64,000 nt of DNA from Plasmodiophora brassicae. Lineage: Eukaryota. Where the stretch lies: the NCBI GenBank assembly GCA_036867785.1, contig CP145420.1, positions 682,001-746,000 on the forward strand, given 5' to 3'. The notes under the pieces were generated by a model. That model did not search any database and was not told where the DNA came from. It saw only the letters and a program-made list of their open reading frames with translations. This document shows, one piece after another, positions 15,796 through 64,000 of the stretch (positions within the stretch are counted from its first letter, which is position 1; each line of letters begins with the position of its first letter). Both the position numbers and the translations under genes were made by a program.

Positions 15796-16681
15796 CTACG
15801 CGGCCGTCGTGCGCTTCTGCTGACGCATCGTGGTGATCTGCTTGTGGACGACGTCGATCAGCATGCGGCCCTGCTCCAGGTTCCCGCTGCGGAACGCGAT
15901 CTCGATGGGCGTCGCCCCATCCTCGTCCTTGTCGAACAGCGACTGCAGACCGGCCTGCAGGACGGCCACGCGAAGCTCTTCGACGTCGCCCGACTTCAGG
16001 GCGTTGAACACGCCAAACCCGATCCCGTCTGATTCGTCATTGCCGCCCGCCTCCGCTTCCTCGTCGGGTTTCGCCTCCGGTGGCGTCTCGGTCGGCTTCT
16101 CGGCGGGGTTCGCGGGTGGCGCCGCCGAGTCGAACTTCTTCAACCGGTCGCGAACTGATCCCGTCCCTGCTTCAGACGACGACGGTTGCTCTTGCTCCGC
16201 TGGAGCGGACGACGCGTTCGTCGTCGGTGGCGCCGACAGCGATTCAGGCTGGGACGACGCCGGGCTCGCTGTGGCCCTCGCCGACAACTTCGGGCCGGAC
16301 GACAGCGTAGACGGTGGCGCGTTCGCCGATAACGACGCCTGCAGGCCCGAGCGGCTCTTGAACGCGGGCATCGACGGGTCGTAGTCGTCCTTGAACACGG
16401 CGTACGTGCCGCGCTCCTTGAACATCTCCAGGAAGTGCACCTTGCAGTAGGGCGTGGACTGGTACATGGCGCAGCTCGTCGCCGACACGACGCAATCACA
16501 TTTCGCGCCTGTCGTTCGCCGCTGTTCAGACGGCGGCCGCCCGGCATGCGCGCGCAGGCGTCCTACATTTGAAGCAGCGCTTGTGGAAGACGGCGTCGGC
16601 CACGTTGACCGCCTCCAACGGGTACACCGTCTTCTGGCACGCCTGGCACTTCGTCGTCGCACCGCCTAGCTTCGCCGACAT
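15796..16681 (-). CDS. LIM-domain protein with C-terminal ankyrin-like repeat; one intron
   Basis: CQACQKTVYPLE...FHKRCFKC|AKCDC...PYCKVH (CRP/plant-type LIM); C-terminal KDEDGATPIEIAFRSGN. Confidence 0.82.
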
Positions 16682-17002
16682 CGATGCCGAATCCCTGTTG
16701 GGGCTGGCACGCGCCCCCGCCTGTCCCTCACAGACCCGGGATATCTTTCCAGATCGCCGTGGCACACGTGGCCAGCGGCGGCCCACGCCGTCATCGCCTT
16801 CCCGAACCGGACAGTCGTGGCCGTGTATTGTCTGGAACAGGTGGCCCCAGGAAGCTGCAGTCGCGCACCCAGTATGTCCTGCAAATGCGTGACTGTGGAC
16901 TGCAACGGTGCGTCAGTGCAGCTACGTGCGGGTCACTCACGGCCCGGGGCACCTTTGTTCAATACACATCGCCGAAGCGCCGCCCGTGCGCGCTGGCCGC
17001 CG

Positions 17003-18973
17003 ATGGTGGGAGTCGCCGCGCGCGCCCTGGCATGTATTCGCGCTCGTCTAGGAGCGTCGTCGTCGACGACCGACCACCTGTTCGGCGTGTTCCGGGCGCA
17101 CCCGTCAGTGGCGACGGCGGTGTCGGCACTGAAGGTGGAACAGGACCGCAATCGGGGCCTGGCCGTCTACCGATGGGTGATCGAATCCAGCCTGCCGGCC
17201 GGTCTTCCGTTCTTCCAGGCCAGCATGGCCTTCTGCAGACGGTCGTACCCTGAGCAGGCACCGATGGTCCTGCAAGCGGCCCTGTCCCGGCAGATTGGCG
17301 TCTATGAACCGCTCTTCTGCATGTTTCTCAGCGCTTGCCGGAAAGCGAGGCCGGTGCTCGTTCAGGACGCATTGGATATGTACGCCAGATGTGGGCCACG
17401 AACCGCTGGCGTTCTGGTCGACATGGCGACGGTTTGCAAGGTGGGCGGGCGCCCTGACGATGCGTTGTTTCTGCTGGACGATGCCCTGGCCGGGAATGTC
17501 GCGATTCCAGAGAGGCTGCTGGCGATGCTGGCAAGGTGCTGTGCGAAGTCAAGGTCGCCCCGGGCCGCTGACCTTGCCGAGCGACTGTTCAACATGATGA
17601 ACGACGAGCGTATCTCGATGCATGATAACATGACAATGTACAGCAACCTGATCAAAGCGCTGCTGGCGCAGGGGCGTTTCGACGCCTGCCTCAAAGCGAT
17701 CTACCTGATGGACCTGCGGCGGCTGCCGCCTTCGGAACCGATTTTCAACCTAGTCCTGAACGCCCTGGCCAAGAATGACCGTTGTACGCTGGCGATGACC
17801 GTGTTCTGGATGACGGTGCAGAGGCGAATCCGATTGTACTGCCCGGTGGTCGGGGGCCTGGCGGCCTCCTGTGGCAGGGCGGCCAACCTGCCCGCCCTGG
17901 AATCCGTCCGACGGTACGCCAACGACCATTCCATGGAGGCGAACGACGTTGTGCTCAGCGGTCTCATCTCTGGGTACGCTCACTGCGTGCACGTCTTCGT
18001 CGCTCAGCAACTGTTCCAGGACCGGTGCCGGGCGACGATGCCCCCCGGCTTCGTATTCGACGCCATGATCGGGGCGTACAGTCTCCATGGGATGCTACCG
18101 AAGGCGATTGCCACGTTCGACCAGATGATCGAATCGCAACGGAAGCCGTCTGAACGGACGCTGACCACCCTCCTTCTCGGGTGCTGTCATGTCGGTGATC
18201 TGGATCGCGCTAAAGGGTTCATCGCTGACTTCCTGCGTTCCTACGGTATCTCGTGTACTGCCGAGTCTTCCCAATTTCTGGTCGATTTGTACGGCAGGCA
18301 CGGCAACCTGGACGATGCCGAACAGATTGTGGTGTCCTCGTTCAACAACGATGCTGCGTCATGGGCCAGTCTTCTCAACGCCTGCCGCGTGCACAAGGAC
18401 ATCGTTCGAGCAGAACGCGTGTTCTCCAAGGTCATCTCGTTGCCGAACGCGTCGCTGGCGTCTGCGTACGTAGAAATGTCAAAGATCTATGCAAGCGCAT
18501 CACTGTTCCCTCAAGCGATCCATATGCGACAGCAGATGAGGGCGCTGGGGCTGGTCGACGGGCCGCGCTCGACAACCGTCCAGCTTCCTGACCGGTCGAT
18601 AACCTTCAAGTCGTGCGATGCGGTGTACCATACGGACGCCAGGCTGAACGCACAGCATGGGCGGATGATCGGGTGCCTGCTGGACAACGGGTACAGGCCC
18701 GACGTGTCGCTGCTCGCCATACAGATGGCCTCCGAGGAAGACGCTCGCCAATCGGTGTACCTGCACAGCGACAAGATCGCGTTGGCGTTCGCGCTCATGC
18801 ACGTGGCACCCTGCGACCCGATTCGCCTGACGAAGAACACGAAGATGTGTCCGGACTGCCACTGGGTCGCCAAGCGCGTCTCCGGTCTGTTGAACCGCGA
18901 CGTCTACGTTCGCGACGTTGCCAGACATCATCATTTCAGACATGGTCAATGTTCCTGTAACGATTACTGGTAG
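17003..18973 (+). CDS. PLS-class pentatricopeptide repeat protein with E1/E2 and DYW domain; intronless; ORF is open from 16817, with an alternative ATG at 16874
   Basis: PPR motifs (MYSNLIKALLAQGRFD, VFDAMIGAYSLHGMLPKAIATFDQM, LVDLYGRHGNLDDAE), E1 WASLLNACRVHKD, E2 AYVEMSKIYA, DYW GYRPD...HSDKIALAF...CPDCH...HHFRHGQCSCNDYW*. Confidence 0.95.
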   Translation: MVGVAARALACIRARLGASSSTTDHLFGVFRAHPSVATAVSALKVEQDRNRGLAVYRWVIESSLPAGLPFFQASMAFCRRSYPEQAPMVLQAALSRQIGVYEPLFCMFLSACRKARPVLVQDALDMYARCGPRTAGVLVDMATVCKVGGRPDDALFLLDDALAGNVAIPERLLAMLARCCAKSRSPRAADLAERLFNMMNDERISMHDNMTMYSNLIKALLAQGRFDACLKAIYLMDLRRLPPSEPIFNLVLNALAKNDRCTLAMTVFWMTVQRRIRLYCPVVGGLAASCGRAANLPALESVRRYANDHSMEANDVVLSGLISGYAHCVHVFVAQQLFQDRCRATMPPGFVFDAMIGAYSLHGMLPKAIATFDQMIESQRKPSERTLTTLLLGCCHVGDLDRAKGFIADFLRSYGISCTAESSQFLVDLYGRHGNLDDAEQIVVSSFNNDAASWASLLNACRVHKDIVRAERVFSKVISLPNASLASAYVEMSKIYASASLFPQAIHMRQQMRALGLVDGPRSTTVQLPDRSITFKSCDAVYHTDARLNAQHGRMIGCLLDNGYRPDVSLLAIQMASEEDARQSVYLHSDKIALAFALMHVAPCDPIRLTKNTKMCPDCHWVAKRVSGLLNRDVYVRDVARHHHFRHGQCSCNDYW

Positions 18974-20312: not shown

Positions 20313-21575
20313 ATGCTGTCCCGCCTACCGCTGTTGGCTGTCGCGTTCGCGATTGCAGTGAATGCTCAGTCGGGCAATGTGGCACTGACGAACGGTCAAG
20401 GCACAATCACGGCGAGCGGCCTGCAATTCTCGCCGTGTTCCGATCAGACGTTCACGTTCCCGCCGTCCGTCCCGGCCGGCCTCAACGACCAGAACGCCAA
20501 CGTCGTCATCACGATCACGTACACGTACACGGCGGCATCGTCGTCGCAGATTATCGCGTCCAAGGGCGTCCTCATGACGGTCACCCTCATGAAAGGCACA
20601 ACAGCGTGCATGCAGCCGCTGTCGATCACGTTCATGCCGACGACGAACAGCAACCCGAACACGGTGTCGTTCACGGTGCCGACGGTCGCTCGATTCGACT
20701 CGATAAGCTTTGGCGCCCAGCAACCCGCCCCCGACACGTGCCTGCCGTCGCAACTGACCGCCCCAGGCATTACCGGGTTCGCTCCCGTCGACGTCCAGCT
20801 TGCCATCACGGTCGGGCAGCCCAACAACAACGGCGTCACCCAGGTGGCAACCAACCAGGGGCAGGTCGGTCACACGCTCCACTCGCATTCCCGTCTGGCG
20901 TCGCTAACAAACCATCCAGGTGGTCGCATACGAGGGCGGACAGCTCCAGGGATCGTTCACGTGCCCGCCATGGGTTCGTCATCGCACATGCGCAGCACCG
21001 CCTTCGCTGATTATGCTTGCCAGGGCAACAAGACGTACTCATTCGACAAGACCGAGATCGTGTGGTTGCCGTGCGCGTACAGCGGCCTGACGTTCTACGA
21101 CACGGCCAAGAAATACGCGATGAAGTCGGTGGTGGGCGTGACAATCACGCTGCACAGCGACGAGGACGTGACGTTGTCGCTGCGCCTACACAGCGTGGGC
21201 GTGTCGCGAGACGTGTTCCAGACGATGTTCCATGTGACGGCGGGGACCGCCTACCAAACGGTGACCATCCCGGTGCCGGGCGCCGGGACGAACGTCATCT
21301 TCGACCAGGTCCTGATCGCCGAGTCCCAGGGCATGCCGTGCGCGCAGGCCCAGAGCATCTACATCCAGAAAGTGGCCATCGCCGGCCTCCCCAGCCTGCC
21401 CAACGACTACACGCCGAGCAATAATGGCGTCGTCAACACCGGAAGCGGCGCGAACGGCCAGGCTGGCGGCGGTGGCGGGGCACACTCGGGCGCTGGCGAC
21501 ATCCTGTCCCGAAACTTGCTCACGTCCACCATGGCCGTCAACCTACTCGCTCTGGCCGCTCTTCACATCGTCTAA
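20313..21575 (+). CDS. Secreted, probably GPI-anchored beta-rich surface protein (possible in-frame intron or introns ~20865-21020)
   Basis: Signal peptide MLSRLPLLAVAFAIAVNA, two beta-sandwich-like regions, G/S-rich spacer and hydrophobic C-terminus MAVNLLALAALHIV. Confidence 0.75.
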   Translation: MLSRLPLLAVAFAIAVNAQSGNVALTNGQGTITASGLQFSPCSDQTFTFPPSVPAGLNDQNANVVITITYTYTAASSSQIIASKGVLMTVTLMKGTTACMQPLSITFMPTTNSNPNTVSFTVPTVARFDSISFGAQQPAPDTCLPSQLTAPGITGFAPVDVQLAITVGQPNNNGVTQVATNQGQVGHTLHSHSRLASLTNHPGGRIRGRTAPGIVHVPAMGSSSHMRSTAFADYACQGNKTYSFDKTEIVWLPCAYSGLTFYDTAKKYAMKSVVGVTITLHSDEDVTLSLRLHSVGVSRDVFQTMFHVTAGTAYQTVTIPVPGAGTNVIFDQVLIAESQGMPCAQAQSIYIQKVAIAGLPSLPNDYTPSNNGVVNTGSGANGQAGGGGGAHSGAGDILSRNLLTSTMAVNLLALAALHIV

Positions 21576-31951: not shown

Positions 31952-32062
31952 CCGGCGACGGCGACTTTCTGGATGTAGATGCGCCGGGCGGCCCTGGGAC
32001 TCGGCGATCAGGACCTGGTCGAAGATGACGCTCGACCCGGCGCCCGTCATCGGGATGGTCAC
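31952..32062 (-). pseudogene. Frameshifted fragment paralogous to the GPI-anchored protein gene (21261-21385)
   Basis: Reverse complement gtgaccatcccgatgacgggcgccgggtcgagcgtcatcttcgaccaggtcctgatcgccgagtcccagggc...catctacatccagaaagt aligns to 21261-21385 with a net 14-nt deletion. Confidence 0.8.
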
Positions 32063-32711
32063 CGACGCCATCCAACGGGCGTTACTTGCAGACCAATGGC
32101 GAAGCAGCGCGATATCGTCAGATTACACTGATCTGCAATGTCGGTTTCATGCCGCAGGTAGGTTCCCGGCTTGGCTCGCCGCCATACAAACATCGTCTCA
32201 TGCGATAGCGGCCATTCAATAGGCACGCTCCGGCAACGTACAAGCTGTCAAACAGGCACCGTTAATGCATCAACGCTTGCACTTCGCCATCCGTTCTCGT
32301 CATTGACGGGTATACAGAGTCAAACTTGACGCCATCGCAGGGTAAACTCCACTGTGGCAACGACTGCCACGACGGCCAGCCTAAAAGTGTCGTTCGTCAG
32401 GTGGGCAGGAGTGGAGCGCAGCCTAGATTGGGCCCAGCGCAATCGGGATCGGGGACGAAGAACGCGTGCCCGGTGTCGTCGCCAACATCGATTGCTGAAA
32501 GCCTCCTCTACCTGTTTGACGAAACGCGACATCGCGCGGCCTCAGACTCTGTTCGCGATCTTACATGTTTACGGTCGTACCATCGTTTCAGCATTGTCAG
32601 TAGGATCCAGGAAACGAACCAGAGGGAGACGACTTGGCGAACAAGGTTCAGGGTGCGTACCGCGCTCCCCGCGGGAACTGTGTCAGTCGCATCGGACGCC
32701 GTGTCGCACCA

Positions 32712-59742: not shown

Positions 59743-60865
59743 TCAGTTGCCTTGTGTCGGCAGCGGGTGGGCCGGCCCAGTTGGCGTCACGTACGCGGCA
59801 GTCAGGCCTCCATCGACAAGGAACTCCGTCCCAGTCACGAAGGATGCTTCGTCACTTGCCAGGAATAACGCGCCAGCCGCCATCTCGTAGCTCTCGCCGA
59901 AACGTCCCATTGGCACTGTGGCAAATCAGAACAGATGTGCTTGTCTGACCTCCATGATGACTTCGTACCATGAACCAGTCGGCGCTCCTTCTTCTCGTCC
60001 GTGTCGAGGAACTTCATTAGGAGTTCAGTGCGGACAGGTCCCGGGCACAATGCGTTGACGCGGATGCCCTCGCGAGCGTGGATCACTGCAAGCTCGCGTG
60101 TCATGGCGAGAACGGCCCCCTTGCTGCTTGTGTAGGCCAGCTGCGGCGTCGCCGCTCCAACGATCGCCACGAAGCTGGCTGTATTGATGATACTACCTCC
60201 ACCAGCACGCCTCATGGCTGGTATACCGTACTTGCAACCGAACCAGACGCCTCGTATCGACATCAGTAAGAGGCTGGTGCGGTACTGAACGGCACCAACC
60301 TTTTACGTTAATGTTCATGGTTGTGTCCCACACCGATTCAGGCGTTGTCTCCGCATTATCTGTGGGAGGATGAGCCAGAACACGCGACGGGTCACGTATA
60401 TGGAACACAACCGTCTTCGGACAACATCACACCGGCGTTGTTAAATAGAATGTTCAGCTTCCCAAACTCCTTCTCGGCCGTCTCAACCATCTGTAAGGGT
60501 AGCTTAGAGTAATACGGGAATAGTACTCGAGACAGCAACACCAATAACCTTTTGGCACTGGGCTTCCTTGGAAACATCGGTGGCAATGGCAACTGCAGGG
60601 CACGACGGGTATTCATCCTTCAGCATTTTCACGGTTTCATGCGCCGCGCTCTCATTTATATCGGACACAACTACAGAGTTCATTAGGTGGATCATGAAAT
60701 GGACAGCAAGGTAAAGCCCTATTTCCAACCGAGACTGGCACCTTCACGTGCGAACAGCAAGCAGGAATGCCGGCCGATGCCGCCCCCGGCTCCGGTCACG
60801 ATGGCGACCTTCCCCTCCAACCGCCCGCGGAGGTTTGTCGATAGGCATCTCACCGTTCGTTTCAT
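59743..60865 (-). CDS. Classical short-chain dehydrogenase/reductase, multi-exon
   Basis: [46 protein letters not shown]. Confidence 0.93.
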
Positions 60866-61055
60866 GAAGCCCAACATAACTCGCTAGGGGCTCGCGACGT
60901 ACGCCGTCACTCCGCACTTGATTAGGTAAACGCCCCGAAGGCCAAATCGAGAAGCGACCTGGAGGTACCCGCACGCACTCGGGACCCGAGTCCGTCCGTA
61001 ACCTGGAACATGTCCGACCTGTCGACGTTGCTCTCTGTACACATAAAACAAATGG

Positions 61056-61698
61056 CGAAACCAAGTACCCAACTGCACTGCCATCGCCTTCTTCTCCCGT
61101 CGATCCAACGACCTTGCCCGACGTGGACGCCGCCGAGCGTGCGCTTTCGTGCGCTTTACGCGCCTTCCAGATCCTGCAGTATGCATCCTTCATTGAAATG
61201 CGGGTCAGTTGACGTAACACAAAGCGCGCTTAGCCCTTCAGCCAGCTAGCCAGGAGCGCGCGAGCGCCCGCTGACAGTGGCTGGGTCGACGAGAAATCGA
61301 CGCGGGCAATGCCAGCGATTAGGTTCAACCACTCACTCGCCGCCAGATCGTCAGAATCACCGGAAAATTCACTCAACGACCACTAAGTCGTCGTGACAAC
61401 AGGATCGGCTAAGGTGATATGTGGCGACGGCTCAGCAGGTGTCGCGGAGGCATCGGTGGTCGGCAAGGGCGTAGGCGGCCTAGCGAGCGGGCGGCTGGCG
61501 AACACGGTGTGAAAGCTCCTCAGCTGCTCCTCAGCGCGAGCCCGCATTTCAGTGAAGAATGCATCCTGCAGTTCCTGCTGGATCTGGAAGATGCGTAAAG
61601 CGCCCGAAAGCGCAAGCTCGGCGGCGTCCACGTCGGGAAAGGTCGTTGGGTCAACGGGAGAAGAAGGCGATGGCAGTGCAGTTGGGTACTTGGCTTCG
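61056..61698. repeat. Inverted repeat: arms ~61056-61204 and ~61541-61698, spacer ~335 bp
   Basis: ccaagtacccaactgcactgccatcgccttcttctcccg...gaaatgcggg occurs on + at 61061 and on - ending near 61693; scattered substitutions and a 9-nt indel. Confidence 0.9.
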
Positions 61699-61887
61699 TC
61701 ATCCACCGAGCCCGTCAAGCCGGAGCGCGTACGAGTCATCAATGAACGATCGGGATAAATTCGAACAACAAGGCCGGGGATCACTGGAAAAATAAAAGTA
61801 CCGAATTAGTGCCGTCCCCTTGATTACCCAATCAGCACTTTATCGGCATTTAACGGCACTACCAAGTAACGCTTTGGGACCCGTGAT

Positions 61888-62027
61888 TGAGGATCCACGT
61901 CTGCCGTGAGTCAAGACTGTCATGGACTGGTATGCATGAGTCACGCGACAGTGTGGACGGTGAGAGTGTGCCACCAGGAATAAAGGAGGTTCCCCAAAAG
62001 CATTCCTACCGTGAACACTTCGTTTCA
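61888..62027 (+). mobile_element. Putative 5' LTR of a Copia element (5' edge uncertain: 61884 or 61888)
   Basis: TG...CA ends, internal AATAAA at 61979, immediately followed by a PBS and the gag ATG. Confidence 0.55.
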
Positions 62028-62047
62028 GATTAAGAGTCCCATCGCTC
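62028..62047 (+). promoter_or_regulatory. Primer-binding site complementary to the anticodon arm of tRNA-Lys(CUU)
   Basis: GATTAAGAGTCCCAT(C)GCTC is the reverse complement of GAGC-ATGGGACTCTTAATC, the eukaryotic tRNA-Lys(CUU) D-arm/anticodon segment as recalled. Confidence 0.7.
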
Positions 62048-62050
62048 GAT

Positions 62051-62808
62051 ATGTCGACCACCAGCACTAGCACGCCGGACGTCAGCGGCGCCGACTCCAA
62101 GGACCACGTGTCGATGACCACCGGAGTCAGACTGACGGGCGCGGACAACTACACGACATGGGCGTTCGCGATGACCGCCATGCTGGACGCGCACGGGCTT
62201 GCCGATTACGTGGACAAGTCCAAGTCGGCGCGTGCCACGGATGAGAGGAAGAAGGCCCGAGCCATGTTCGCCATCACGCGGAACATCGGGACGTCCCATA
62301 TGGCTCTGATCAAGGGATGCACCAGAGATCCCGCTGGAGCGTGGGACATCCTTCGCGATGAATACGCCGGGAAGTCCAACCAGGACACGGCGACTCTGCT
62401 GATAGAGCTATTCGGGAAGAGGCTGGACCCCTGCCCGTCAATCGAGGAGGCGAAGGCGCATTTCGAGCGCATGAACGACCTGAACTTGCGATTGAGGGAG
62501 ATACAGGAGGACCGAGCACTTCCCGATGTGATCCTGTCGGTGCTCATGGCGATGCCGCTTCCTAACGACATGGAGCAGATCCGCTACGCGCGCCTTTCGG
62601 GCCCGGCTGAGATGCTGACATCGAGAACTATTCGAGACGACGTGATATCGCTGCTCCGTCGCATGGCGGTGACGGATGGTGCGGCGGCCAACTCTGGCGA
62701 TGCCGCGATGAATGCGAACTCGGGCGGTGGCGGTGGACGACGACGCCGGTTTCGGGGGAATTGCTTTGAATGCGGGAAGGCGGGCCACCGCGCGGCGAAC
62801 TGCCGTCA
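62051..62808 (+). mobile_element. gag: Ty1/Copia gag, truncated after the zinc knuckle (no pol in the window)
   Basis: LTGADNYTTWAFAMTAMLDAHGL (Copia gag N-terminus), UBN2-like core (AWDILRDEY, LPNDME), CCHC knuckle CFECGKAGHRAANC. Confidence 0.9.
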
Positions 62809-63035
62809 GCGCGCTGGCCCGCCTTCCCGCATTCAAAGCAATTCCCCCGAAACCGGCGTCGTCGTCCACCGCCCGAGTTCGCATTCATCGCGGCATCGCC
62901 AAAGTTGGCCGCCGCACCATCCGTCACCGCCATGCGACGGAGCAGCGATATCACGTCGTCTCGAATAGTTCTCGATGTCAGCATCTCAGCCGGGCCTGAT
63001 AGGCGCGCGTAGCGGATCTGCTCCATGTCGTTAGG
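62561..63035. repeat. Near-perfect palindrome of the gag 3' part: arms 62561-62793 and 62809-63035, 15-nt loop
   Basis: Direct comparison shows 4 substitutions and one 6-nt indel over ~230 bp. Confidence 0.95.
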
Positions 63036-63229
63036 CGATTTTCCAACAAAGCGCTCGTACGTTCTTGCAAACCGCTTAGAATGGAATGGTACCCCAGGTA
63101 TTGACACTATGGTATTCTCGTTAAACAATAGAATAAACGTCCACGAACCGTCGGCCTCGGTTGACGGTTAATCCGTGTTGTGAGACAATATCGTCTGTCG
63201 TGTCGTCTCCTGACAGCGATCAGCATGGG

Positions 63230-63385
63230 CCCGTTCGCGTTCCTCTTCAGAGCCGCCGCGGCGTTCAGCAGGACGATTCTCCGCATATCGAACTTGTCGG
63301 CAACTTCAAGCGCGGTCACAACGTCTTTGTATTCGGCGGGTAAGTTGTAGAGCATAGTGGCCGAGGTCAAGAGTCCCAGCTTCAC
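63230..63385 (-). mobile_element. Degenerate Copia gag (UBN2-like) fragment from a different family
   Basis: ATMLYNLPAEYKDVVTALEVAD resembles the LL.SLP.EY..vvtale gag motif. Confidence 0.5.
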
Positions 63386-64000
63386 CGGTCTCACGCGATG
63401 TCGACTGACACAGGTCGCTTGTGTCTCTCGACGATTCATCGTGGTCGTTCTCCGAGCTCGACATAGAGCGAACATCTGCAGCGGCCGATTGGGAGCGCAG
63501 TGATCAGTACAGTCATTCGTGCCCAGCCATTCAGTCAGTGACGAACGATTCGCCTGCGTTTGCCAGACGCGTGCAGTGTGACGGCGCGGCGACTCGTCCG
63601 CGTGCGACGAGCAGGTCCATTGCCGTCGGCAGCAGCGTCGTCGTCAACGGCCTCGTCAGCCTGGTCGGATCGGTTGCCCCGTCGCTGGCGAATGGCGGCG
63701 ACGTACGTGCCCACCGTATCGTCGACGATGCCGTGAAACTCCGACGACGTTCCCTCGGCCTTGGCCGAGAGTCCAGGATCACCAGCTCGAACGCGTTTAC
63801 GAAATATGCATGTGCGCGCCTCGAGCTCAGTCCGATCTCGACGAGCGTGCGCCCCACAGCGCCGATCAGCCTCAGAGCGTGCTTATAAGGACGCGCCAAT
63901 CGATGCGTGCAGCGCCGCACGTCTCCAGTAGGTCGTTGTAACGGGCAGCTATGGCGGGCGCGCGTTTTCTGGTCGTGAGGTATAGCACCAAAGACGCGGG

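What the first reader, a model, noticed from the sequence alone, without database searches (positions are those of the whole stretch)
62561..63035. Copia gag folded into a ~475-bp hairpin: possible Mu-killer-like silencing locus
Seen: LTR-PBS-gag reads to the zinc knuckle and then runs into an inverted copy of the last ~230 bp, with a 15-nt loop and no pol. An LTR-driven transcript would form a long dsRNA stem. Two of the four arm differences are synonymous (ctt tcg vs cta tca, Leu-Ser), which hints that the arms came from two diverged element copies rather than one snap-back. Established: inverted TE duplications such as maize Mu killer produce siRNAs that silence their family in trans. Inference: an endogenous hairpin-siRNA source against this Copia family.
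Basis: partly seen in the sequence, partly recalled or inferred. Interest (0 to 1): 0.75.

Follow-up and report, generated by a model that had tools for sequence, protein, structure and literature searches.

The report
Folded-back Copia gag stump in clubroot protist
A broken Copia-type jumping gene in the clubroot parasite Plasmodiophora brassicae ends by doubling back on itself, so any transcript across it would form a 230-bp RNA hairpin that the parasite's RNA-silencing machinery could cut, though nothing yet shows that it does.

Summary
The hairpin is real in the sequence. The arms are 62561-62793 and 62809-63035, with a 15-nt loop. They differ by 4 substitutions and one 6-nt indel. The RNA fold is -519.5 kcal/mol (z = -44).

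The window is Plasmodiophora brassicae: an NCBI protein from a second assembly matches both flanks at 100%. The left arm is the 3' end of an intact Copia-type gag ORF (62051-62808). Homology to relatives stops just after the zinc knuckle, whose last Cys codon lies in the loop. No pol is present anywhere in the window. A second LTR is absent, so "LTR-PBS" remains only a candidate.

The best reading is a single fold-back (snap-back) inverted duplication at the break of a truncated element, followed by drift.

P. brassicae has AGO1/2 and a Drosha-like RNase III that cuts long dsRNA into 21-mers. It has no RdRP, and the source of its siRNA precursors is unknown (PMC13547706). The locus is therefore structurally able to make siRNAs. 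However, none of the published miRNAs lies in it, no other copy of the family was found, and transcription is untested.

This would be a new member of a known kind.

The parts
61743..62027 (+). Candidate 5' LTR (weak). It starts TGAACGA and ends TCGTTTCA. It is AT-richer than its surroundings, with AATAAA at 61791 and 61979.
   Evidence: Read from the sequence. GC is 0.49 against about 0.60 around it. No second copy exists in the window, so the LTR status is untested.
62026..62041 (+). CA plus a candidate primer-binding site, GATTAAGAGTCCCA, ending 9 nt before the gag ATG. Its complement has the shape of a tRNA anticodon arm with anticodon CUU, which suggests half-tRNA priming.
   Evidence: The 16-mer is unique in the window. 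It is an exact antisense match to the 16-nt core of published Pb-miR003. That alignment score was reached by 1 of 100 shuffles. Half-tRNA priming in copia and Ty5 comes from passages of PMC5371799. The tRNA-Lys(CUU) identity is recalled, not tested.
62051..62808 (+). Copia-type gag, original copy. It is open from the ATG through the zinc knuckle (aa 1-253).
   Evidence: Pfam Retrotran_gag_2 E = 5.5e-9, plus DUF4219 and zf-CCHC. It is 48-62% identical to 12 relatives. Homology ends at 62812-62857.
62762..62803 (+). CCHC zinc knuckle CFECGKAGHRAANC. Its last Cys codon (62801-62803) lies in the hairpin loop.
   Evidence: Regex on the translation and alignment A1.
62561..62793 (+). Left arm of the hairpin (233 nt), covering gag codons 171-248.
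62794..62808 (+). Loop, GGCGAACTGCCGTCA. It is genuine gag sequence (..AANCRQ), which marks the left copy plus loop as the template.
   Evidence: Relatives read AAECR, AASCR and AANCW here.
62809..63035 (-). Right arm (227 nt), an inverted copy of 62561-62793. It carries Ser->Phe, His->Gln (which breaks the CCHC) and a 6-nt deletion relative to the left arm.
   Evidence: tblastn of relatives hits the minus strand at 63035-62808.
63132..63137 (+). First AATAAA downstream of the hairpin. None lies between 62051 and 63035, so a plus-strand transcript could run through both arms.
   Evidence: Regex scan. Its role as a poly(A) signal is inference.

Best explanation
The window is Plasmodiophora brassicae nuclear DNA. 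At about 61.7-63.0 kb lies the 5' stump of a Ty1/Copia-type retrotransposon. It consists of a candidate LTR, a candidate half-tRNA primer site and a complete gag ORF running up to the zinc knuckle. The pol region and the 3' LTR are missing. At the break the sequence turns back on itself: after a 15-nt loop, the last 233 nt of gag are repeated in reverse complement and then joined to unrelated DNA. I read this as one fold-back (snap-back) event. A free or stalled 3' end annealed a few bases upstream on its own strand, in a self-complementary CGCGC run, and copied itself backwards for about 230 nt before being joined elsewhere. This could have happened during repair or replication of a chromosomal copy, or on an aborted plus-strand cDNA. 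Afterwards the arms drifted apart by 1.8% plus a microsatellite indel. Shown: the anatomy, the direction of copying (left copy plus loop is the original) and the loss of pol. Inferred: the mechanism of origin. Functionally, any plus-strand transcript crossing 62561-63035, whether from the LTR or by read-through, must fold into a near-perfect stem of about 230 bp. In P. brassicae such dsRNA is the known substrate of the Drosha-like RNase III PbDRL, which makes 21-nt RNAs for PbAGO1/2. The organism has no RdRP, so fold-back loci of this kind are a plausible genome-encoded source of transposon siRNAs. I think siRNA output here is likely if the locus is transcribed. A selected Mu-killer-like trans-silencing role is unlikely at present, because no other copy of this family was found. 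The most probable status is an accidental rearrangement product that can feed the RNAi pathway.
For: Hairpin anatomy and fold. gag identity and truncation point. No pol in the 64 kb. Species and second assembly: P0002, named by NCBI as Plasmodiophora brassicae, sits on a 1,249,881-nt contig while the window's own ORF sits on a 1,260,905-nt contig. P0002 is 100% identical to 62051-62749 and to 63613-63885, so both flanks are co-linear in another assembly. The arm differences are substitutions plus a repeat-unit indel, not the identical arms expected from a chimeric read. Polarity: both amino-acid changes that can be polarised lie on the right arm; 9 of 9 relatives have His and none has Phe. RNAi competence of the host comes from PMC13547706, sections 2.1, 2.2, 2.4 and Discussion, with Tables S4-S6 and S8 read. 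[quoted passage not shown] It also shows a palindromic region that generates miRNAs (legend of Fig. 2G) and ranks TEs as the second-commonest source. PMC4471660 (passages) also found argonautes, one double-RNase III protein and no RdRP. No AATAAA or ATTAAA lies between the gag ATG and the end of the right arm.
Against: No expression or small-RNA data could be mapped to this locus. None of the published miRNAs (all rows of Table S8, compared by eye rather than by program) lies in 62561-63035. The phasiRNA and hc-siRNA tables give only coordinates in another assembly, which I cannot relate to the window. The 78,890 siRNAs are not listed. The LTR, and therefore its promoter, is unverified. The three protein searches found no other P. 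brassicae member of the family, so there may be nothing to silence. That negative is weak, because the right arm's own 132-aa ORF was not in the database either. The second assembly is seen only through a gene model that skips 62750-63612, so the loop and right arm themselves are not confirmed there. Microhomology at the junction is only 4-5 nt of CG repeat, and the outer junction (63035/63036) shows none.
Confidence: 0.55

Rival explanations
1. It is a selected, Mu-killer-like trans-silencer. The hairpin is kept because its siRNAs hold down active copies of this Copia family elsewhere in the P. brassicae genome.
For: The architecture matches that described for Mu killer: a partial inverted duplication of a transposon gene giving a hairpin RNA (abstract of PMC3440606). 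The host lacks an RdRP, so hairpins are among the few routes to dsRNA. Both flanks are kept in two assemblies. The PbJS genome is annotated with 286 Copia fragments, 0.96% of the genome (Table S5). One published miRNA (Pb-miR003), which lies inside a phasiRNA locus, shares a 16-nt core with the antisense of the candidate LTR-end/PBS at 62026-62041. This hints that LTR-element palindromes do make small RNAs in this species.
Against: No second member of the family was found in P. brassicae. The nearest relatives are 48-62% identical, too diverged for siRNA targeting. They come from unnamed environmental contigs, from Spongospora subterranea and from a 'Beta vulgaris' record. No small RNA is shown from the locus. 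The arms are decaying with amino-acid-breaking changes, although base-pairing is what would matter. The miR003 match is only suggestive: its score was reached by 1 of 100 shuffles for one miRNA, and about 240 rows were inspected.
Confidence: 0.15
2. It is two diverged element copies lying tail to tail. Two insertions in opposite orientation were trimmed by deletion until their gag ends met.
For: Two of the four substitutions are synonymous. Arm identity is 98.2% rather than 100%.
Against: P(>=2 of 4 synonymous) is 0.28 under neutral change. The two synonymous changes are 3 nt apart and may be one event. Two independent truncations would have to end 15 nt apart. The right arm ends abruptly at 63035, with no further gag, PBS or LTR beyond it on the minus strand. 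The right arm has His->Gln in the knuckle, which a working copy would not carry.
Confidence: 0.08
3. It is an assembly or library artefact, such as a chimeric palindromic long read or an amplification chimera.
For: Short-spacer inverted chimeras are a known artefact of long-read and amplified libraries (recalled, not from a call). I could not see reads. The second assembly is seen only through a protein model that skips 62750-63612.
Against: The arms differ by 4 substitutions and a 6-nt unit, whereas artefact arms derive from one molecule. The palindrome is internal and flanked by unique sequence on both sides. Another assembly has both flanks in the same order and orientation and needed a predicted 863-nt intron to bridge them, while P. 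brassicae introns average 60 bp.
Confidence: 0.07
4. It is a domesticated gag gene. The intact 253-codon gag ORF is a host gene, annotated as one in two assemblies, and the hairpin is an irrelevant 3' appendage.
For: The ORF is open from the ATG to the knuckle with every conserved motif. It is annotated as a protein in two assemblies.
Against: The small arm divergence implies a young event, so an unbroken ORF is expected without selection (inference). The two gene models disagree: one is a 305-aa read-through into antisense gag, the other jumps an 863-nt 'intron'. No orthologous stand-alone gag was found.
Confidence: 0.05

Closest known systems
Maize Mu killer (abstract of PMC3440606)
   Same: It is a partial inverted duplication of a transposon's own coding sequence, and one transcript across it gives a hairpin RNA proposed as the siRNA substrate.
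   Different: Mu killer derives from a class II MuDR transposase with two TIRs. Its hairpin is about 4 kb, it is driven by read-through from a flanking gene, and it has been shown genetically to silence active MuDR heritably in a plant that has RdRPs and RdDM. Here the source is a Copia gag, the stem is 0.23 kb, the promoter is unknown, no siRNAs or targets are shown, and the host lacks an RdRP.
Palindromic small-RNA loci of P. brassicae itself (PMC13547706, Fig. 2G legend, Tables S6 and S8)
   Same: Same species. These are long palindromic precursors (listed precursors reach 973 nt) processed by PbDRL into phased 21-nt RNAs.
   Different: This locus is not among the sequences listed in Table S8. 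The paper does not describe any of its loci as transposon fold-backs: in the main text 'copia' and 'inverted repeat' each occur 0 times.
Large inverted-repeat siRNA loci of Trypanosoma brucei (abstract of PMC3447711) and Drosophila hairpin esiRNA loci (abstract of PMC5392987)
   Same: They are genome-encoded inverted repeats serving as a dsRNA source for endogenous siRNAs alongside retroposon-derived siRNAs.
   Different: Those loci depend on Dicer and are experimentally shown. They are not described there as the folded-back end of a single truncated LTR element.
Fold-back inverted duplications at broken or stalled DNA ends, and the 5' inversions of LINE-1 made by twin priming (recalled, no call)
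   Same: There is a short spacer, an inverted copy of the adjoining sequence, and loss of what lay beyond the break.
   Different: The mechanism here is inferred from anatomy only. The microhomology is short and the outer junction gives no clue.

Membership tests
Ty1/Copia LTR retrotransposon | Copia-type gag with a CCHC knuckle | tested here: met
   Retrotran_gag_2 scores E = 5.5e-9, 36.1 bits against a cut-off of 27. The CX2CX4HX4C motif is present, but zf-CCHC scores 19.3 bits, below its 20.8 cut-off.
Ty1/Copia LTR retrotransposon | pol with the order protease-integrase-RT-RNase H | tested here: not met
   Relatives carry Pol_BBD and gag_pre-integrase after the knuckle. tblastn finds none of it in the 64 kb. 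The copy is a stump, not an element.
Ty1/Copia LTR retrotransposon | Two long terminal repeats with TG..CA ends and a target-site duplication | tested here: not met
   No direct repeat of 60 nt or more exists and no second copy of 61743-62050 was found. Only a candidate 5' LTR remains, and a TSD cannot be tested without a 3' LTR.
Ty1/Copia LTR retrotransposon | Primer-binding site complementary to a tRNA next to the 5' LTR | tested here: inconclusive
   No tRNA gene is in the window. By eye, the canonical iMet 3'-end PBS is matched only over TGGTAT, near 61929. The candidate GATTAAGAGTCCCA at 62028-62041 fits an anticodon-arm (half-tRNA) primer, as in copia and Ty5, but the P. brassicae tRNA was not available.
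Mu-killer-type transposon silencer | Partial inverted duplication of transposon coding sequence | tested here: met
Mu-killer-type transposon silencer | Transcribed into a hairpin RNA | not testable with these tools
   No RNA-seq access. The only indirect point is that no AATAAA lies before the end of the right arm.
Mu-killer-type transposon silencer | Produces siRNAs | tested here: inconclusive
   None of the rows of Table S8 lies in the hairpin (by eye). The siRNA list is not published in the supplement, and the PHAS and hc-siRNA tables give only coordinates of another assembly.
Mu-killer-type transposon silencer | Active family members exist that are silenced in trans | tested here: inconclusive
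   No other P. brassicae protein of this gag family was found in the near, longer or shorter searches. The database does not hold all ORFs, and genome DNA was not searchable.
Fold-back (snap-back) inverted duplication | Short spacer, with the original copy continuous through the spacer | tested here: met
   The loop is 15 nt and encodes the genuine continuation AANCRQ of gag, including the last knuckle Cys.
Fold-back (snap-back) inverted duplication | Microhomology at the turn-back point | tested here: inconclusive
   The inner 5 bp are CGCGC/GCGCG, which is self-complementary. The ancestral sequence beyond 62808 is unknown.

The most novel reading that the evidence does not exclude
This locus, and perhaps the neighbouring 650-bp inverted repeat, are examples of a general class. 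[quoted passage not shown] They would act as a heritable record of past invaders, processed by the Drosha-like PbDRL. The published Pb-miR003/PHAS21-5 locus, whose miRNA shares a 16-nt core with the antisense of the LTR-end/PBS candidate here, would be another member.
Probability: 0.2. Interest if true: 0.7.

Novelty: new member of a known kind. Interest (0 to 1): 0.45.

Why it matters
A 2026 study of RNAi in P. brassicae states that the organism lacks RdRp and that the way its siRNA precursors are generated remains unclear (PMC13547706, Discussion). A transposon fragment folded back into a 230-bp perfect-stem precursor is a concrete candidate answer. It can be checked immediately with that study's own small-RNA libraries. 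If such loci prove general, they would show how a Dicer-less, RdRP-less rhizarian remembers and represses its transposons. If the locus is silent, it is simply a neat example of a fold-back rearrangement at a broken retrotransposon.

Tried and rejected
- **Rfam on 60000-64000.** This gave only sub-threshold look-alikes of long hairpins: VA RNA 44.7 bits against a gathering score of 62, isrG, mir-638 and mir-3150. I rejected them as structure-only matches.
- **Search for full-length relatives ('longer').** None was found among 4202 candidates. The tool itself calls this weak evidence.
- **Search of bacterial and archaeal genome contigs with a gag alignment.** The first alignment was too divergent. 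The second gave 35 pattern matches and 0 relatives.
- **The 118-aa ORF inside the upstream inverted repeat (61383-61739, minus strand).** It has no Pfam family and only 2 weak hits among 1.84 billion representatives. I treated it as non-coding.
- **The region 63107-63475 (minus strand).** It gives only a weak Retrotran_gag_2 hint, E = 0.064 over 24 residues, with no tblastn match to this family. It is not counted as a second element.
- **Exact look-up of the ORFs in the protein clusters, to see other assemblies.** The service was switched off, so whether the right arm is present in other assemblies stayed unchecked.
- **Relating the window to the published PHAS, hc-siRNA and miRNA coordinates.** This was not possible because those tables use another assembly's contig coordinates.

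Full report
**What is in the sequence.** The repeat finder and a gapped alignment place a left arm at 62561-62793 (233 nt), a loop at 62794-62808 (15 nt) and a right arm at 62809-63035 (227 nt). Of 227 aligned positions, 223 are complementary. The differences are four substitutions (62596 T/A, 62599 G/A, 62694 C/T, 62788 C/G) and one 6-nt indel in a GGCGGT run.

As RNA, 62541-63055 folds at -519.5 kcal/mol against -217 +/- 6.9 for 100 dinucleotide shuffles. That is z = -44, and 0 of 100 shuffles fold as well. Across the whole 64 kb, the only local inverted repeats of 30 nt or more are this one and a second one 0.9 kb upstream.

**What the arms are.** The ORF 62051-62968 (305 aa) matches Pfam Retrotran_gag_2 (E = 5.5e-9, above the curated cut-off), with weaker DUF4219 and zf-CCHC matches. 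The knuckle CFECGKAGHRAANC is aa 238-251, nt 62762-62803, so its last Cys codon sits inside the loop.

Twelve relatives found by protein search are 48-62% identical. tblastn places their homology on 62051 to 62812-62857 and, on the minus strand, on 63035 to 62808. In the relatives the knuckle is followed by a Pol beta-barrel/protease part and, in P0013, by the pre-integrase domain. None of that is found anywhere in the window.

The left copy plus loop is therefore the original gag. The element is cut off a few codons after the knuckle, and the right arm is a reverse-complement copy of the last 233 nt.

**Whose genome.** P0002 is named by NCBI as Plasmodiophora brassicae and sits on a 1,249,881-nt contig. 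It is 100% identical to 62051-62749 and to 63613-63885. The window's own ORF is recorded on a 1,260,905-nt contig, so this is a second assembly of the same locus.

The window also carries ordinary eukaryotic genes, including an SDR, a JAB/MPN protein, LIM-villin and ankyrin proteins and a DYW-type PPR protein. Its GC content of about 0.55-0.66 fits the 0.594 reported for the species (Table S4 of PMC13547706).

P0002 bridges 62750-63612 with a predicted 863-nt intron, whereas P. brassicae introns average 60 bp (PMC4471660, passage). That model is probably wrong as a gene. It does show that both flanks of the hairpin lie in the same order in another assembly. It does not show the loop and right arm themselves.

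**LTR and PBS.** There is no second LTR. The window has no direct repeat of 60 nt or more, and blastn of 61743-62050 finds nothing. No tRNA gene is present. What can be offered is a candidate only:

- An AT-richer stretch at 61743-62027 (GC 0.49) begins TGAACGA and ends TCGTTTCA, with AATAAA at 61791 and 61979.
- It is followed by GATTAAGAGTCCCA at 62028-62041, ending 9 nt before the gag ATG.
- The complement of that motif has the form of a tRNA anticodon arm: a 5-nt stem, then the loop CTCTTAA with anticodon CTT.
- Copia-type elements such as Drosophila copia and Ty5 prime from a half-tRNA cut in the anticodon arm (PMC5371799, passages).
- That the tRNA would be Lys(CUU) is my recollection of tRNA sequences and was not tested.

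- In the 77 arm codons, 26% of all possible substitutions are synonymous, so two or more of four has P = 0.28. The two synonymous changes are 3 nt apart.
- The other two changes are Ser->Phe and His->Gln at the knuckle histidine. In alignment A1, 9 of 9 relatives that cover that column have His and none has Phe at the other. Both derived, damaging states are on the right arm.
- The spacer is 15 nt of genuine gag, and the inner 5 bp (CGCGC/GCGCG) are self-complementary.
- Beyond the right arm's outer end (63036 onward) there is no further gag, PBS or LTR on the minus strand.

Two independent truncations ending 15 nt apart are far less likely than one fold-back. In that event a free or stalled 3' end anneals just upstream on its own strand, copies about 230 nt backwards, and is then joined to other DNA, with loss of pol and the 3' LTR. 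I cannot tell whether this happened on the chromosome, by break repair or template switching, or on an aborted plus-strand cDNA. The plus-strand cDNA grows from the LTR into gag and so has the right polarity. This step is inference.

**Artefact?** Arms copied from one molecule would be identical. Here they differ by four substitutions and a repeat unit. The palindrome is internal, and a second assembly shares both flanks. I put an artefact at about 7%. Reads were not available to me.

**How it would work.** Two papers bear on this.

- PMC4471660 (passages) found argonautes and one protein with two RNase III domains, but no RdRP.
- PMC13547706 (sections 2.1, 2.2, 2.4 and Discussion; Tables S1-S6 in part and all of S8) gives much more detail:
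  - 90.3% of P. brassicae small RNAs are 21 nt, phased and carry 2-nt offsets.
  - They come mainly from intergenic regions and then from transposons.
  - 'A palindromic genomic region' generates miRNAs (Fig. 2G legend).
  - PbAGO1 and PbAGO2 silence targets.
  - The Drosha-like PbDRL is needed for small-RNA production and cuts long dsRNA into 21-mers in vitro.

A plus-strand transcript through 62561-63035 would be exactly such a precursor. No AATAAA or ATTAAA lies between the gag ATG and the end of the right arm, and the next one is at 63132. The locus is therefore structurally competent, and the host has the machinery.

**What speaks against a working silencer.**

- I read every row of Table S8 (Pb-miR001-225 with lettered paralogues) against the hairpin by eye, not by program. 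None lies in it.
- The siRNA species are not listed in the supplement. The phasiRNA and hc-siRNA tables give coordinates of another assembly that I cannot relate to the window.
- Three protein searches found no other P. brassicae member of this gag family: near lengths gave 14 hits, longer gave 0, shorter gave 3.
- The nearest relatives are unnamed environmental proteins, one Spongospora subterranea protein (P0016) and one 'Beta vulgaris' record (P0014). I suspect the last is plasmodiophorid contamination, which is my inference. At 48-62% identity they are not siRNA targets.
- The negative result is weak, because the right arm's own 132-aa ORF was also absent from the database and genome DNA could not be searched.

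**A lead from the miRNA table.** Pb-miR003 has its precursor at Ctg_1:1026183-1026841, inside phasiRNA locus PHAS21-5. It has no predicted gene target in Table S9: the term occurs only once in the file. It shares an exact 16-nt core with the antisense of 62026-62041, that is, the CA plus the candidate PBS. The shared stretch is what two different LTR families using the same primer would have in common.

The statistics are only suggestive. That alignment score was reached by 1 of 100 shuffled windows for this single miRNA, and I had looked at about 240 rows, though only against about 3 kb. Pb-miR028 similarly matches 63883-63904 at 19 of 21 positions with a 2-nt gap, a score reached by 2 of 100 shuffles. 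If real, these matches mean that repeat-derived palindromes related to this neighbourhood do make small RNAs elsewhere in the genome.

**Comparison with known systems.**

- The architecture is that of maize Mu killer (abstract of PMC3440606).
- It also resembles inverted-repeat siRNA loci in Trypanosoma brucei (abstract of PMC3447711) and in Drosophila (abstract of PMC5392987).
- It meets the structural criterion of that kind. Transcription, siRNA output and trans targets are untested or inconclusive.
- As a Copia element it fails the tests for pol and paired LTRs, so it is a stump.
- In the held library, 16 papers contain 'Plasmodiophora brassicae', 'siRNA' and 'retrotransposon' together. The 15 listed are, by title, about plants.
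- PMC13547706 uses neither 'copia' nor 'inverted repeat' in its main text.
- I therefore found no description of transposon fold-backs as small-RNA sources in this organism. Subscription journals are not covered by that library.

**Verdict.** This is a real, probably single-event fold-back duplication at the broken end of a Copia gag in P. brassicae. It is able to make dsRNA in an organism that needs RdRP-independent dsRNA sources. It is not shown to be expressed, and it has no visible family left to silence. I rate it a new member of a known kind and of moderate interest, mainly because public small-RNA data can settle the question quickly.

Noticed in passing
window 61052-61204 and 61541-61702: A second, older inverted repeat lies 0.9 kb upstream of the gag hairpin. 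Its arms are 153 and 162 nt, with 12 substitutions, a 9-nt indel and a 336-nt spacer. Both arms begin at an ATG. An ORF of 118 aa runs through the right arm on the minus strand, but it has no Pfam family and no real homologues. These two repeats are the only local inverted repeats of 30 nt or more in the 64 kb.
   Followed up: partly
window 62026-62041: An exact 16-nt antisense match to the core of published Pb-miR003, whose precursor lies inside phasiRNA locus PHAS21-5 of the PbJS assembly. The complement looks like a tRNA anticodon arm with anticodon CUU. This could be a half-tRNA primer-binding site shared with another LTR element.
   Followed up: partly
window 63883-63904 (+): Matches published Pb-miR028 at 19 of 21 positions with a 2-nt gap, a score reached by 2 of 100 shuffles. 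The flank downstream of the hairpin may belong to a repeat family that forms a miRNA precursor elsewhere.
   Followed up: partly
window 63107-63475 (-): An ORF with a weak match to the LP..Y..VTALE part of Retrotran_gag_2 (E = 0.064 over 24 residues). It may be a much-decayed second gag of another family, or it may be chance.
   Followed up: partly
window 62750-63612 (relative to protein P0002): The NCBI gene model from another assembly joins gag codon 233 to an unrelated ORF at 63613-63885 across an 863-nt 'intron', about 14 times the species' average intron length. It is labelled '(mitochondrion)'. This looks like a mis-annotation caused by the hairpin.
   Followed up: partly
proteins P0003-P0007, P0012, P0013 (relatives, not in the window): Six gag-protease relatives (373-427 aa) all end at the same motif (..DLA..QDF[CA]). 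P0013 reads on from there into the integrase zinc-binding region. This suggests a conserved ORF boundary (stop, frameshift or intron) between protease and integrase in this family.
   Followed up: no
window 16670-18973 (+): A 767-aa open frame with PPR repeats and a C-terminal DYW deaminase domain (E = 9e-27). This is a plant-type RNA-editing factor architecture in a rhizarian genome.
   Followed up: no
window 21259-21332 and 31991-32064: A 74-nt inverted repeat pair, 95% complementary, 10.7 kb apart. Its nature is unknown.
   Followed up: no
window 59835-60700 (-): A short-chain dehydrogenase gene in several exons lies directly upstream of the repeat cluster, so the cluster sits in an otherwise gene-dense region.
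   Followed up: no
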